A stretch of DNA of 64,000 nucleotides, from the NCBI RefSeq assembly GCF_024298765.1, contig NZ_CP101210.1. One strand, 5' to 3'. The position numbers are program-made. Positions 1 through 6,000 of the stretch are shown piece by piece. This DNA is from Escherichia coli. GTDB taxonomy: Bacteria; Pseudomonadota; Gammaproteobacteria; Enterobacterales; Enterobacteriaceae. Positions within the stretch are counted from its first letter, which is position 1; each line of letters begins with the position of its first letter.

Positions 1-3000
1 ATACCACCTGGTACTGGAAAGAAAATTTCCCTCATGCGTATGAAGCGATTTATGGCAATTATCAAAATAATGTTTTAGCCAATATTATTTTCGTCGACTT
101 CCAGCAACAAGGTGAAAGAGGACTGACGAACGCGCCTGATGAAGATCCGGACGATTTAAGCACGGGATATTACGGTTCAGCGTACCGGTCACCGGAGAAC
201 TGGACGACGGCACTGCGAAGCAGTCATTTCAGCGCGGCAGCCCGTCGGGGGATTATTTCTGACAGGTTTGTAGAAGCAATTTTGCGGTTTTGGCGCGAAA
301 GGTGAGCGTTCATTAATTTGATTTATTTGCATCCATCAACGCTTTTAACTCCTCCGGTGAAAACGGTGGTTTGCGTCGGTGCAGCATCGCATGGCAATTA
401 GGGCACACAGGCAGCAAATCATTAACTGGATCCAGCTGGTAATCCTCTTTAATGGCTGAAAGCGGCACCAGGTGATGCATATGGATAAAGCCTTCAGCGA
501 TATCACCATAGATCTTCACCAGATCAACGCCGCATACGTTGCACTGGCATCCATGATATTCGACCGCTTTATCTCGGGCCTTTTTATCGCGTTCATAGCG
601 GTTTACTGTCACCTTTATCGCCGCACCTTCAACGTATGTCTCCTGCGACGGCAACTCATCCGGGAACAGAACGTTGGCTATGGGAGCCGCAGCGGCTTTA
701 TCCTGATGAATATGAAATCCCTGCTCTATGAGTAGTTTGACGCATTTAGATTTTATTCCGCCGGTGAAATCCGCAGGGGTAAATTGCGTCCCCGTCATCA
801 ATGTCGCTGCGATGCCAGCAATCGCCTTCGAGGGGTAACGTCGGCCATGATATTCAATCTCATACAACCGCGCAGGCTGGAACTGATGAGTTTCTCCCGC
901 ATCCCATAAATGGATAGCTTCGATGATATACCGCCGCGGAAGATGGTCGGGAAGTTTATTCATGGGGAATATCCTTATACGTTCTCAGAACAGGCAGCAA
1001 AAAAACAAATGAGATCAAGGTAATATATCTTCACTTGCAGGCTTGAACAGCAGAAAATTTGCGAGCATGATCGCAATTATTTCACTGCCAGGGATATCAA
1101 TGGCTTCCAGTAAATCGCTACAGCAGGCAATTGCCAATATAAAAATCTGGCACAAGGGTGAACAGCGCGCGCCGCATAAGCCATTGTTATTGCTATACGT
1201 ATTAGCGGGATACCTGAATGGACATCCGCGCCTTTTCGATTATGGATCGGAAATCTACGAACCTCTGCACAGTTTACTGGAACGTTTTGGGCCACAGCGT
1301 TCACAGTACCGACCTGATATGCCGTTCTGGCGATTACAAGGCGACGGATTCTGGCAATTACACAATGCCGAGCTTTGCTCAACAGCAGGGAGCAGCCGAC
1401 AACCGCCAGTGAAAGAACTGAACGAATACCACGTTGCAGGCGGTTTCGATGAACAGCACTACGCCCTGGTAACCGGCAATAAAAAACTCATCAATACTCT
1501 GGCGCAACAGATACTCGAAGCGCACTTCACCGAGAGTATTCAGGAAGAAATTGCTGACGAGCTGGGTTTTGATCTCCAGCAAATCCGTAAACAGCGCGAC
1601 CCGTTATTTCGCAAAAATGTATTACGCGCTTATAACTACCAGTGCGCGATATGTGGCTTTAATATGCGCCACGACGACACCACCGTCGCGCTGGAAGCGG
1701 CGCATATTAAATGGAAACAGCACGGCGGTCCTTGTGAAATTCCTAATGGCCTGGCGCTTTGCGCAATTCACCATAAAGCCTTTGATAAAGGATCGATTGG
1801 CCTGGACGAAAATATGCGGGTACTGGTATCAGATGCGGTAAACGGCGGAGGGATCGTTGAGAGATTATTCTGGGATTTTGACGGGAAAACTATTGCGTTG
1901 CCGCAGGTGCGTAAAAATTACCCTTATGAGGTGTTTGTAGAGTGGCATCGGAAAGAGGTTTTTAGGGGGTGAGGTTGATAACTATCGCAGTATGTTCAAT
2001 ATTGCTGACATAATCAGTGCAGGATCTTGCCGCTAGTTTACAACTCGCCTTCGATAGCGGCGCAAAACGAGTTCTGTTGCCGATATCCTCGGCTATGGAT
2101 ATTCCAACAGTTCCGGCAGAGTTGTTTACCAAGTTTCAGGTAAGTTTTTACTCAGAACCGGTTGATGCGGTTTATAAGGCGCTGGATGTGAATTAACACA
2201 TTCCTCAGCTTATTTACAAAAGGATTATTCCCATTTGATATAATATCAGTGCCAATTTACTTTTTTCAATGGAATATATCTCGACTAAATAACAATAAAA
2301 CTTATCGCTAATGGATTAAATAAACAATTTTCTAATTCATTTCACCACCTTTGATATAGAAATTGATGGTGTTGTCGCTGCCATTGCTTATGGTGATGAT
2401 AAAATCCACGTTTCTGGATCGTTGCGTAGAAAATCATCACTACCTTGATATTTTGATGCGATATAATCATACCGTTCCGTAGTACCAATTTCAATTTCAG
2501 GCTAAACCCCAACATTAAAAAAATTAGAGTTATTCACTGATTATATTATCAATAATATAATCAGTGAATAACATGAACTATATAATAAATTGCTCTAATC
2601 ATTTCCCTTACGAATATATGGGCCAAAAGTCCAAGAATCATAATAAGGGTGATGGACTAATTTTTCATTAAATCGAACACTATAAGTTAATTTTTTTATA
2701 TTTTTACGTACAGCATTAATACTGGGCAAAGAGGAAAGATAATCTATAAACTTATCGATAGTGATTTCCCCTTCGCAACACTCAAACCCATCAATGATAT
2801 TTTTCGCCATTTTTCCATTTTCATTTGTTTGATATATCACTCCAGGTATTCGTTGAAAAAAACTAGATAATGCATATTTGTCCGCTACATATATATCATC
2901 CACATGATATTTCCCACCGAGCATAGTTGTAGTAACAATAAGCTTATACACACCTTTGGGTTGCCATGTTGATGGTAGTTCGAATTCTTTAATGATCACA

Positions 3001-6000
3001 TCAAGATGATTAAGATAATGTTCAGAAATTCGATTTATTTGTTGAAAATAAGAACGCATAAATTTATTATTATGATCATGTATTAATGAGCTATCTCCAA
3101 CGATGTTATACACTTGCTGATAGTACTTACCATAATATATTGGTTGACCATTTGATTTTAGTTCTGTAAAAATCAAACAATCATCCAGGAGAATCACGCA
3201 ATCGCACTGATAATTAGCATGAGCATCAATTGGAGAAGCTTTAATCCCCGCATCACGAACTTGTTTTATAAATTGTTGTTCATGAAATCGCCCTTTACTT
3301 GCTTGAGAAATTTTTTTGGAACCAAATAATGACATTAGAGAGCGAGTAACTGAGCTATTTGCTATTAATGCAGGCATTAAGCATAAACCGTCCATACAGG
3401 GAATAAATGGGCAATCATTAAGATCATGTGATTTTGAATTGAAGGTAAAATAATCTATCAGTTTTTTTGCTGCATCTGCTGCAATCCCCTTACGTTGAAA
3501 GAATGATAACCAACTCTCACGGCTTTTTATGATCAGCCAGCGATCCAACTGTAGGGGTATAGGTTTTGTCGATGAAAATCTTTTGCTCATTTCTTCTTTA
3601 GATAACTCGACTAAACATTGATAAGCGTGCACCCAATTAAATAATGATATATTCCCATATTCTTCATGAAGGTCATCAGGAGACATATTTTCCAACTCGC
3701 TTAGATGAAATGAGCTAAAAACGCCATCAGAATTTAAGTAAGATGGCATATGATCCTTTACCCAACTATTTAGATGAAAATGTTTGTTACTAAATTCATG
3801 AACTTCGCTATATAGATGTGACGCTCTCATCATTAGTCTATTTCTTGCAATCTCATAATCTCGGTATAAACAAAAACTATCAACCTCAAGAGAGTAAATG
3901 TTATTATCCAATTTTGTAAATACTGCACTACTTAGTCTGAAAAAGTCTCTTACTCTGCTTAATGAGTCAAAAACATTCCACTCATTAAGGTACCCTCCCA
4001 TTGAAAGCAAGGTTTGTTTATTCACACAAGAAGTTAGTTTCAATGGCCCATGAGTCCGTAAATAAGAAAATATTCTTCCGGTGTAATTGGCTACCTCATC
4101 AAATGCCCTATCGATAACTCGAAAATATTCGATATCAGGTTCAGCATGAATATTAATATTTTCAGAAACGATAAATAATGGAAAAATCCTCTTCATTTTT
4201 TTAGGATCATTGACCACAACCAAGGATGATAATGATGATAAAAACATCTCACAAAACATGATGAGATTAAGTATTAATGCATGTGATTTTTTTGTATTTT
4301 TACGCCAAATACCAGCACATTTTGTAGCCGCAAAGAAAGAATTATTTATATCATGCATAATTTTACATTGACTCTCGAACTCAGAGATTAGTTCAATGTT
4401 ATCAGGAAATGAGTTTACTAGCTCATTAATACATTTTTTGAATGTATTGTTATACTCAACTTCAGTCTGAACTGAAAATCTATTATAATAGATGGAAGAT
4501 ATTCTCAGCACATCCAAGGCGATATCTATACTAATATCATTTCTTTTTATGTACTCACAAAAAAAAGAACAAAACTGTTTCGGGTCGTTAGCAAGATTAC
4601 TAATTCTAGTGGTATCATAAACTTTTTCCATTTTTCCATACATCCTATTGTCTAAATTACTATAAAACTAGCCACTTAACTAATAATTATAAATTTCATC
4701 TTTTACACCTTGCATTTTTATAACCAATGAAATCTACAACAAGCAACTGATGGATAATCCGATATTGGTCGCATTTAATGGCATGGTAGCAAAGTTTTCA
4801 TCACATACCTCCTTTGCACCAGAATAAACGCCAGAGATCTGAAATTGCGAGTACACTACAGAAATTGTACTGCCGGTCCCATCAGCATAAAACCATAGTT
4901 ACACAGGTAATCATCATTATTCGCCAAGATAATAAATATTATTCGGTAGAATAGCGTTCTCAGGTGGTCAGTAAAATTGTCTTCAACAAGATGTCTGCGC
5001 ATCTCGTCTGCTAGCCCTACATAACTGCTCTCGACCGAAACTATTTATTGAATGTTCACCAAGGTGGGCGTGGAGACAAAATGACGTCTTTTGATATTAG
5101 CTACCTGAGCCACATGGTCAAAACGTTCAAGTAGCATACCGAAACCACCCTGCCCACGTAATGTGGACGATGCAGCTTCCAGCCAGAGCAAACTTGGGAC
5201 CATCGACTACAAAATGAAGAATACTGAACTGCTTTTCTGGCAGGCCTATATACTGCACGGATATGGGTGATTTCAGACACAAAAAAAGCCGCTCTTGAGC
5301 GACTCGATTTGCATACGGTGTGGTGCGAAGGCCGGACTCGAACATGTGACTTAACCTCATGATTTAAAATTGTTAATAATAAACAATATCATCTTATACC
5401 AACACAGATACCAACACGAAAAATCACTGGTTTTCGGCATCGAACCAGGACAATCAGCTCCTGATTGAGATACCGAGCTCTGTTACTCGTCATCTTCCTC
5501 GACAGGCTTCATTGCATCAAGTAGTACTCGCACCATCGCGATAGAACCAATCCGGATAAAAGCATCTTCTCCATCTATATCTGTTAACTGATATCGCTCA
5601 CTTGATGCCGGATAAGTGTGTCGATTTGCAGCAGTGTACTCTTTTGTACAGCCAGAATGTGGCTGACTGAGGTGGAGCAGATAATGTCCCCGTTGACCAC
5701 TTCCGGACGGGAGGCTGTGATTTCAGACATAATTGATATTCCTTTTTGCAGATAAATGAAAACGCCAGCCCTGTTCAGGCTGGCGTCAGTGGAATGAAGT
5801 ATGGTGAGTAATATTTATCGGTTCTGGTGCAGAAGCTGCAGTTGGCGCAGGGTACGGATACCCTCCCTGGCCTGTTCGATACAGGGCAACAGTGCTGCCG
5901 AATCCGTTTTATCCTCATCGTTGTCAAAGATAATTCCCGATTCGCAGTCGATATTGTCCTGCAGCCACACAATCAGAATATCCAGCGCCGTTTCTGTGGT

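What the first reader, a model, noticed from the sequence alone, without database searches (positions are those of the whole stretch)
1..5320. Separate accessory segment lying outside the leuX island att repeat
The island that begins at leuX ends at the 23-bp tRNA repeat at 5321-5343, yet the DNA beyond it is still accessory-looking: nuclease genes, AT-rich composition and a gene fragment. This implies a second, independently acquired segment or tandem island at the same tRNA hotspot, whose far boundary lies outside the window.
Basis: inference. Interest (0 to 1): 0.45.

Follow-up and report, generated by a model that had tools for sequence, protein, structure and literature searches.

The report
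Decayed defence-island remnant beside leuX
The 5 kb beyond the leuX island's end repeat is an older, now immobile leftover of the well-known E. coli leuX defence-gene hotspot, which ends inside the window at the nanS gene and carries two restriction-type nucleases, fragments of deleted defence genes and one uncharacterised nuclease gene.

Summary
The repeat at 5321-5343 is a displaced copy of the leuX 3' end (18 nt exact, one C missing). It marks the far end of a 28,598-bp island with a P4-type integrase. A strain identical on both flanks lacks exactly 5344-33941.

The DNA beyond the repeat is separate and older. It abuts intact leuX in 105 complete E. coli genomes and abuts the same island end in 168.

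- **Boundary:** the far boundary is inside the window. Bases 1-303 are the 3' end of nanS, followed by nanM-nanC-fim in every strain examined.
- **Island features:** there is no second leuX repeat and no integrase remnant.

The segment is a mosaic relic:
- An intact HNH gene and a phosphorothioate-DNA-dependent SBD-HNH restriction gene. Traces of this pair occur in about 90% of E. coli.
- The last 180 bp of brxL. ECOR29 has the complete BREX-1 operon at this position.
- A 184-bp 5' stub of a PLD-like "END nuclease" gene.
- A 2.8-kb module at 34% GC, present in about 6% of genomes, encoding an uncharacterised 682-aa PD-(D/E)xK nuclease.

This locus is the published E. coli defence hotspot #37. 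The finding is ordinary. Only the 682-aa gene is of modest new interest.

The parts
1..303 (+). 3' end of nanS (sialate O-acetylesterase). This is the conserved flank and the true far boundary of the variable segment.
   Evidence: Translation is open to the stop codon. 97.4% identical to K-12 nanS. nanM-nanC-fimB lie upstream in L001, L002, L005-L007, L011 and L017.
313..963 (-). Intact 216-aa HNH endonuclease: a ScoMcrA-head-like N-terminus plus a McrA-like HNH domain.
   Evidence: Pfam HNH. PADLOC mREase_IV. PDB hits 5ZMM residues 29-93 and 6GHC. The gene body 425-985 is present in 1,236 of 5,426 genomes.
407..1001 (.). 12-bp direct repeat ACAGGCAGCAAA (407-418 and 990-1001). It brackets the stretch (419-989) that is deleted in most other strains.
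   Evidence: the repeat finder family D17. blastn breakpoints fall at 418/990 in ECOR29, L005 and L006.
1100..1972 (+). SBD-HNH type IV restriction endonuclease specific for phosphorothioated DNA (290 aa; the mechanical ORF starts at 1043).
   Evidence: NF045808, 438.7 bits against a cutoff of 180. Pfam HNH_2. The N-terminus matches the ScoMcrA sulfur-binding domain, 5ZMM 97-232. At least 80% of the gene is present in 1,706 genomes and traces in 4,869 of 5,426.
1982..2016 (.). 35-bp filler at the deletion junction that removed a membrane-protein gene, brxA-pglZ and most of brxL.
   Evidence: Sequence comparison with ECOR29.
2017..2196 (+). Fragment encoding the last 59 codons of brxL (the BREX Lon-like protease).
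   Evidence: PADLOC BrxL positions 623-680 of 680, E 1.7e-19. TIGR02653 positions 617-675 of 675. 93.9% identical to the brxL end in ECOR29.
2296..2479 (+). 5' stub of a PLD-like 'anti-phage END nuclease' gene, with its start codon changed from ATG to ATA.
   Evidence: 2017-2479 is 85% identical to L004/L005/L006 across the brxL end, the intergenic region and the gene start. The alignment read shows the start-codon change.
2529..2572 (-). Perfect 21+21 nt hairpin followed by a T-run; likely terminator of the 682-aa gene.
   Evidence: Inverted repeat I1. Terminator-like site.
2595..4643 (-). 682-aa uncharacterised protein with a C-terminal PD-(D/E)xK nuclease domain. It is the cargo of a 2.8-kb AT-rich module (2480-5268).
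4644..5268 (.). Unannotated stretch belonging to the module. It holds the promoter region of the 682-aa gene and a possible degraded hipA-like gene (4859-5044, minus strand).
   Evidence: Co-occurs with the gene in 332 genomes. Weak HipA_C hit, E 0.0034, below the Pfam cutoff. No Rfam hit.
5269..5320 (-). leuX downstream region with the tRNA terminator hairpin (5286-5305).
   Evidence: Over 5269-5343 (this region plus the repeat): 94.7% identical to the sequence just downstream of leuX in ECOR29 and 79% to K-12. Terminator-like site. This is the real leuX terminator in empty-site genomes.
5321..5343 (-). Displaced 3' end of leuX; the attR-type repeat of the inserted island.
   Evidence: The published PAI II536 end primer matches 5326-5344 exactly.
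5344..33941 (.). Context, not part of the segment: the 28,598-bp CP4-like island, with a P4-type integrase at 32490-33755 (-) next to leuX (33942-34026).
   Evidence: Absent from the otherwise identical strain 13P477T. Integrase domains Arm-DNA-bind_3, Phage_int_M and Phage_integrase. Island genes listed.

Best explanation
Bases 304-5320 are the resident, immobile remnant of earlier occupants of the leuX hypervariable region (E. coli defence hotspot #37). The remnant spans the whole gap between the conserved gene nanS and leuX.

Inferred order of events:
1. An old pair of divergent type IV (modification-dependent) restriction genes sat next to nanS: HNH and the phosphorothioate-sensing SBD-HNH.
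2. A BREX-1 defence island lay between that pair and leuX, as still seen in ECOR29.
3. A deletion removed about 14.7 kb. Only the last 180 bp of brxL remain.
4. The part from a PLD-like END nuclease gene to the integrase was replaced by a 2.8-kb AT-rich module. The module carries one solo PD-(D/E)xK nuclease gene and reaches the leuX terminator.
5. This arrangement spread between E. coli lineages by homologous recombination through the conserved flanks.
6. Later, a 28.6-kb island used its P4-type integrase to insert into the 3' end of leuX. That duplicated 24 nt of the tRNA and pushed the remnant 28.6 kb away from the gene.

What is shown: the gene content, the breakpoints, the empty site and the distribution. 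What is inferred: the order of steps 1-5 and recombination as the means of spread. A defence role for the 682-aa protein is inferred from its nuclease core and its neighbours only.
For: Empty site and independence:
- Strain 13P477T is 100% identical on both flanks and lacks 5344-33941.
- APEC O1 has the segment directly at leuX. UPEC 536 has it beyond PAI II536.
- The empty junction occurs in 105 genomes and the occupied junction in 168.

Boundary:
- nanS occupies 1-303, with nanM-nanC-fim upstream.

Relic nature:
- The BrxL C-terminal fragment.
- Complete brxA-brxL between SBD-HNH and leuX in ECOR29; partial BREX in L005 and L006.
- Breakpoints at 1981/2017, 2479/2480 and 5268/5269.
- K-12 keeps only a 250-bp stub of the SBD-HNH gene beside nanS.

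Distribution:
- 4,869 of 5,426 genomes have traces of SBD-HNH; 1,706 have at least 80% of it.
- The HNH gene body is in 1,236 genomes.
- The module is in 333 genomes.

Recent spread:
- The module is 99.3-99.4% identical to phylogroup B2 strains, its non-coding part included.
- By comparison, SBD-HNH is 97.7% identical and the ahr side 95-96%.

Literature:
- leuX anchors defence hotspot #37, the most occupied of 41 hotspots. BREX and AbiE are found there (PMC12707154; PMC10121019).

Insertion mechanism:
- A P4-type integrase lies next to leuX.
- PAI II536 has been shown experimentally to integrate site-specifically at leuX (PMC3202238).
Against: - The order of the deletion and replacement events is reconstructed from a handful of comparator genomes, not from a phylogeny.
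- No outgroup species was examined. That the HNH/SBD-HNH pair is ancestral at nanS is therefore inferred only from its 90% trace frequency.
- The donor of the AT-rich module is unknown.
- The low divergence of the module could partly reflect selection rather than recent transfer. The non-coding 625 bp is equally conserved, which argues against selection alone.
- No experiment links any gene here to phage defence in this strain.
Confidence: 0.85

Rival explanations
1. First reader's reading. The segment is a second intact or tandem genomic island integrated at leuX, bounded by another leuX 3'-end repeat that lies beyond the left edge of the window.
For: - The segment is accessory in part and AT-rich in part.
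- Tandem islands at tRNA genes are common.
- Related strains do carry an integrase remnant next to leuX in front of a BREX island.
Against: - Bases 1-303 are nanS. The next genes upstream are nanM, nanC and fimB, in the same order in K-12 and in every comparator.
- No second leuX-like repeat occurs in 1-5320 or in the same interval of ECOR29, L005 or K-12.
- No integrase remnant was found.
Confidence: 0.04
2. The 2.8-kb AT-rich module (2480-5268) is a small autonomous mobile element that inserted on its own next to leuX, rather than arriving by replacement or recombination.
For: - Breakpoints are sharp and GC is 34%.
- The module is almost identical across phylogroups.
- Relatives of its gene sit in mobile contexts: Tn7-like cargo, integrase-bearing islands and Bacillus plasmids.
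Against: - The module has no transposase, integrase, terminal inverted repeats or target duplication.
- Full-length matches come from about 333 genomes, all but a few matching places are chromosomal, and every copy examined lies at this locus.
- There is no match in the phage collection.
- Its left end truncates a gene rather than lying in an intact target.
Confidence: 0.08
3. The segment is ordinary core chromosome that merely looks unusual.
For: - Traces of the SBD-HNH gene lie beside nanS in about 90% of genomes, and GC over 304-2016 is 0.48.
- UPEC 536 workers used a primer inside it (5051-5071) as 'core genome context' of leuX.
Against: - Only 6% of genomes carry 2480-5268.
- 23% carry the HNH gene and 31% an essentially complete SBD-HNH gene.
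- The segment contains truncated defence genes.
- K-12 has about 40 kb of other material here.
Confidence: 0.03

Closest known systems
E. coli defence hotspot #37 / leuX hypervariable region (Hochhauser et al. 2023, PMC10121019; Raleigh review 2025, PMC12707154; Bishop et al. 2005 for Salmonella)
   Same: - Same chromosomal interval, anchored by leuX.
- Same kinds of occupant: BREX, AbiE, restriction systems and P4-type integrase elements.
- Replacement of systems between strains.
   Different: - This is one particular decayed state of the hotspot, with no integrase.
- It holds a cargo gene that matches no model in the 2023 PADLOC or 2026 NCBIfam libraries.
Chromosomal flank of PAI II536 in UPEC 536
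   Same: - The same segment is present (module 99.4% identical; other parts 93-98.5%), apart from the 571-bp HNH deletion, including the 18-nt repeat junction.
- The published primers M805c and PaiII_53rev map to 5051-5071 and 5326-5344.
   Different: - In 536 the inserted island is a roughly 100-kb pathogenicity island; here it is a 28.6-kb CP4-like island.
- In 536 the HNH gene carries the 571-bp deletion; here it is intact.
BREX-1 island at leuX in E. coli ECOR29 (and StySA at leuX in S. Typhimurium, PMC9009780)
   Same: - Same position and orientation: SBD-HNH, then the brx operon, then leuX.
- The brxL end is 94% identical.
   Different: Only 180 bp of brxL remain here, so no BREX function is possible.
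ScoMcrA / EcoWI-type SBD-HNH phosphorothioate-dependent restriction endonucleases
   Same: A sulfur-binding domain plus an HNH domain, scoring above the curated NCBIfam cutoff.
   Different: - ScoMcrA is a single 561-residue chain with head, SBD, SRA-like and HNH domains. Here a head-like domain with HNH and an SBD with HNH are two divergent genes.
- Identity to EcoWI itself was not tested.
K-12 KpLE2 region (leuX to yjhR)
   Same: - Same interval between leuX and nanS.
- The leuX-proximal 62 nt are identical to those of the island in this window.
   Different: K-12 holds about 40 kb of other cargo and keeps only a roughly 250-bp stub of the SBD-HNH gene.
Single-protein PD-(D/E)xK defence nucleases (Upx; the nuclease domains of Card1/Can2; NERD proteins)
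   Same: - The 682-aa protein shares the nuclease core fold and the D...ExK catalytic residues.
- It sits among defence genes in several genomes.
   Different: - It has no CARF or NTPase domain.
- No function has been tested.

Membership tests
tRNA-integrated genomic island (P4-type integrase island), asked of segment 304-5320 | Integrase gene or remnant next to the tRNA end | tested here: not met
   tblastn of the window's own P4-type integrase against 1-5400 found nothing. tblastx of 4600-5400 against the leuX-proximal intervals of ECOR29, L005 and K-12, which include their integrase remnants, found only the leuX-terminator match in ECOR29.
tRNA-integrated genomic island (P4-type integrase island), asked of segment 304-5320 | Direct repeats of the tRNA 3' end at both ends | tested here: not met
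   The only repeat is 5321-5343, and it belongs to the other island. No further leuX-like match was found in 1-5320.
tRNA-integrated genomic island (P4-type integrase island), asked of segment 304-5320 | Variable presence among strains and atypical composition | tested here: inconclusive
   Met for 2017-5268: about 6% of genomes, GC 0.32-0.40. Only weakly met for 304-2016: traces in 90% of genomes, GC 0.48.
E. coli defence hotspot #37 (leuX) | Lies between leuX and the conserved flank and holds defence genes | tested here: met
   The segment lies between nanS (1-303) and the leuX repeat. It holds two type IV restriction-type genes and BREX and END nuclease relics. The hotspot is described in PMC12707154 and PMC10121019. 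The paper's own boundary genes were not checked.
BREX type 1 system | brxA, brxB, brxC, pglX, pglZ and brxL all present | tested here: not met
   Only the last 59 codons of brxL are present. The full set is seen in ECOR29.
SBD-HNH phosphorothioate-dependent type IV restriction endonuclease (gene 1100-1972) | Sulfur-binding domain plus HNH nuclease domain, scoring above the curated family cutoff | tested here: met
   NF045808, 438.7 bits against 180. Pfam HNH_2. ScoMcrA SBD match, E 6e-8.
SBD-HNH phosphorothioate-dependent type IV restriction endonuclease (gene 1100-1972) | Cleavage of phosphorothioated DNA | not testable with these tools
   Requires a biochemical or transformation assay.
PD-(D/E)xK nuclease superfamily (682-aa protein) | Conserved D...(D/E)xK catalytic residues on the restriction-endonuclease-like fold | tested here: met
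   [not shown]
NERD domain (PF08378) (682-aa protein) | Match to the Pfam model | tested here: inconclusive
   The query has no Pfam hit. Only 5 of 59 relatives hit NERD, best E 2e-5.
Any named anti-phage system in PADLOC 2.0 or NCBIfam 20 (682-aa protein) | Significant match to a system model | tested here: not met
   Only a weak local PDC-M29B hit, E 1e-3. No NCBIfam hit.

The most novel reading that the evidence does not exclude
The 682-aa protein (2595-4643) may found an undescribed single-gene anti-phage system. It would combine a large helical N-terminal sensor domain with a PD-(D/E)xK effector nuclease. The gene is scattered sparsely across Enterobacterales and Bacillota. In E. coli it moves between lineages by recombination at the leuX hotspot.
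Probability: 0.35. Interest if true: 0.45.

Novelty: already known. Interest (0 to 1): 0.22.

Why it matters
The practical value is in annotation. An att repeat marks the end of one island, not the start of core DNA. At leuX, the true conserved boundary on the far side is nanS. The locus is also a clear example of how defence hotspots decay. A complete BREX operon in one strain is reduced to 180 bp in another, and an old restriction gene pair erodes differently in different lineages. The one loose end with some research value is the uncharacterised 682-aa nuclease, which could be tested directly for phage defence.

Tried and rejected
- **Second leuX repeat.** Searched by pattern with up to 3 mismatches and by short-word blastn, in the window and in the same interval of ECOR29, 19SZHZ869Rt, K-12 and 13P477T. 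None found.
- **Integrase remnant in 4600-5400.** Searched by tblastn and tblastx. None found.
- **Rfam on 1-6000 at E <= 1.** No match.
- **682-aa protein.** No Pfam or NCBIfam family. No PDB sequence match, alone or as a profile. No match in phage genomes. Only distant relatives on four Bacillota plasmids.
- **Pattern scan of GTDB genomes.** It failed with the broad alignment. With the narrow alignment it returned only 4 loci, one of them probably a mis-binned E. coli contig.
- **AFDB fold library.** Not available.
- **Foldseek against PDB.** Nothing significant.
- **Literature search by protein accession.** Nothing found.
- **EcoWI.** Its source and sequence could not be recovered from the paper read, so identity to it is untested.
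- **The 35-bp filler at 1982-2016.** Its partial complementarity to the 2529-2572 hairpin (I3) was noted but not pursued; it may be chance.

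
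Full report
**What is there**

The window is E. coli. ARAGORN finds one tRNA, leuX (tRNA-Leu CAA), at 33942-34026 on the minus strand. The 23-mer at 5321-5343 occurs once, with none expected by chance. It equals the leuX 3' end with one C missing, and 18 nt are exact. A 421-aa integrase with Arm-DNA-bind_3, Phage_int_M and Phage_integrase domains lies at 32490-33755, next to leuX. The layout is therefore that of a P4-type integrase island running from leuX down to the repeat.

**The island end is proven by an empty site**

Strain 13P477T (L002) is 100% identical to the window over 1-5343. It is also 100% identical over 2.5 kb on the ahr side. There, intact leuX directly follows the segment. 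The window therefore equals that genome plus 28,598 bp (5344-33941) and a duplicated tRNA end.

APEC O1 has the same empty arrangement. UPEC 536 has the same segment beyond the distal end of PAI II536. The published PAI II536 end primer matches 5326-5344 exactly. The published "leuX flanking" primer M805c matches 5051-5071 with one mismatch.

A 400-nt probe across the empty junction is found whole in 105 complete genomes. A probe across the occupied junction is found whole in 168. The segment exists with and without the island, so it is separate and older.

**The far boundary is inside the window**

Bases 3-305 translate without interruption to a stop codon. Bases 1-308 are 97.4% identical to the 3' end of K-12 nanS. 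Upstream of the window lie nanM, nanC, fimB and the fim operon, as in K-12 and in every comparator. The variable segment is therefore about 304-5320.

No other leuX-like sequence is found in 1-5320, nor in the nanS-leuX interval of ECOR29, 19SZHZ869Rt, 13P477T or K-12. No integrase remnant is detectable.

**Anatomy of the segment**

| Coordinates | Feature | Evidence |
|---|---|---|
| 313-963 (-) | 216-aa HNH endonuclease. Its N-terminus resembles the ScoMcrA head domain and its C-terminus resembles E. coli McrA. | |
| 1100-1972 (+) | SBD-HNH enzyme. It scores 439 bits on NCBIfam NF045808 (cutoff 180) and has a ScoMcrA-like sulfur-binding domain. | |
| 2017-2196 | The last 59 residues of BrxL. 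| |
| 2017-2479 | 85% identical to other strains across the brxL end, the intergenic region and the first ~184 bp of a PLD-like "anti-phage END nuclease" gene. The start codon here is ATA. | |
| 2480-5268 | Matches only genomes that carry the 682-aa gene. | |
| 2529-2572 | Perfect hairpin with a T-run; terminates the 682-aa gene. | |
| 4859-5044 (-) | Weak, sub-threshold HipA_C match. | |
| 5269-5320 | The leuX terminator region. | |

**Where the fragments come from**

ECOR29 carries, in the same place and orientation: nanS, a deleted HNH gene, SBD-HNH, a membrane protein gene, brxA-brxB-brxC-pglX-pglZ-brxL, further genes, type I M and S subunits, an integrase remnant and leuX. Strains 1919D3 and 19SZHZ869Rt carry partial BREX, then the END nuclease, AbiEi/AbiEii, an integrase remnant and leuX.

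The window's segment is thus what remains after two events. One was the loss of about 14.7 kb, from just after SBD-HNH to near the end of brxL. The other was the replacement of everything from inside the END nuclease gene to the leuX terminator.

Conversely, the window has an intact HNH gene. ECOR29, APEC O1, UPEC 536 and others lack 419-989. That stretch is bracketed by a 12-bp direct repeat.

**Distribution in 5,426 complete E. coli genomes**

| Feature | Genomes |
|---|---|
| Any trace of the SBD-HNH gene | 4,869 |
| At least 80% of the SBD-HNH gene | 1,706 |
| HNH gene body | 1,236 |
| SBD-HNH/brxL-fragment junction region | 456 |
| 682-aa module | 333 |
| At least 80% of bases 1-5400 | 296 |

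K-12 keeps only about 250 bp of SBD-HNH between yjhR and nanS, with about 40 kb of other material up to leuX.

GC content varies along the window:
- 0.48 for 304-2016
- 0.38 for 2017-2479
- 0.32 for the 682-aa gene
- 0.40 for 4644-5268
- 0.50 for the core side of the window

Against B2 strains, the module is 99.3-99.4% identical, its non-coding part included. SBD-HNH is 97.7% identical and the ahr side 95-96%. This points to recent spread of the module by recombination through the conserved flanks. That is an inference.

**The 682-aa protein**

The protein has no Pfam or NCBIfam family and no PDB sequence match.

An exhaustive HMMER search finds 227 representative clusters, mostly 640-690 aa. 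Close relatives occur in Salmonella, Izhakiella, Xenorhabdus, Pectobacterium and Pantoea. Distant relatives occur on Bacillota plasmids.

D481, E494, K496, Q535 and D588 are invariant among 59 members. Some members hit NERD, Card1_endonuc, Mrr_cat and CARF_PDDEXK models.

The gene has no conserved partner. Several relatives sit among defence genes or in mobile elements:
- type I R-M plus a Cap4 nuclease
- a Gabija-like pair inside Tn7-like cargo
- an integrase with KAP NTPase and Mrr genes
- a P4-type integrase island

Others lie in plain metabolic contexts. A role as a solo defence nuclease is plausible but unproven.

**Comparison with what is known**

The leuX region is a long-known hypervariable locus. 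It is hotspot #37 of the E. coli defence-island catalogue. A review calls it the most occupied of 41 hotspots, with BREX in 9% of strains, and notes P4-type integrase activity at one anchor (PMC12707154). BREX occurs only at hotspots #1 and #37, and AbiEii occurs at #37 (PMC10121019). PAI II536 integrates site-specifically at leuX (PMC3202238).

The finding is thus a correct reading of a known kind of locus. The error is in where the segment ends and in treating it as a bounded island.

**Verdict**

As a feature the segment is already known, and its interest is low. The only item of some novelty is the uncharacterised 682-aa nuclease gene.

Noticed in passing
window 407-418 and 990-1001: A 12-bp direct repeat (ACAGGCAGCAAA) brackets exactly the 571 bp missing from the HNH gene in ECOR29, APEC O1, UPEC 536 and others. 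This looks like a repeat-mediated deletion. The window keeps the intact gene, as do 1,236 of 5,426 genomes.
   Followed up: yes
window 4737-5206 (minus strand), best at 4859-5044: Three consecutive open stretches in different frames. One has a weak, sub-threshold HipA_C match, with a motif (ILANNDDYLCNYGF) that resembles the HipA kinase catalytic loop as recalled from memory. Possibly a degraded hipA-like toxin gene inside the AT-rich module.
   Followed up: partly
window 2529-2572: A perfect 21+21 nt AT-rich palindrome just downstream of the 682-aa gene. It scores as a terminator. It also contains promoter-like hexamers on both strands, and the 35-bp filler at 2000-2019 is 85% complementary to one arm.
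   Followed up: partly
window 33880-34026: leuX plus the 62 nt downstream of it (the integrase-side end of the island) is 100% identical to K-12. The island here therefore shares its leuX-side end with the K-12 KpLE2/intB element.
   Followed up: partly
window 5321-5343 against 33942-33965: The displaced tRNA end has lost one C relative to the functional copy. Empty-site strains have the intact 24 nt at this position.
   Followed up: yes
L013 (SFGN01000178.1, 'Lachnospiraceae bacterium' MAG, 4.2-kb contig): This contig carries a 98% identical copy of the E. coli 682-aa gene. It is most likely an E. coli contig mis-binned into a Firmicutes MAG.
   Followed up: no
window 313-963 and 1100-1972: The two divergent nuclease genes together resemble a split ScoMcrA. 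One has the head-like domain plus HNH and the other has the sulfur-binding domain plus HNH. Whether they act together is unknown.
   Followed up: partly
window 5144-5543: The distal end of the island (5322-5543) matches 1,896 genomes, far more than carry the segment. The same island end is therefore joined to other flanks in many strains.
   Followed up: partly
L001 11547-11891, just upstream of the window: nanS is annotated as a truncated pseudogene in the exact-match strain and in several comparators, but as intact in UPEC 536 and K-12. The window's 1-303 still reads as the NanS C-terminus.
   Followed up: no
window 45000-46000 and 48000-50000: Further AT-rich patches (GC 0.30-0.37) on the core side of leuX.
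   Followed up: no
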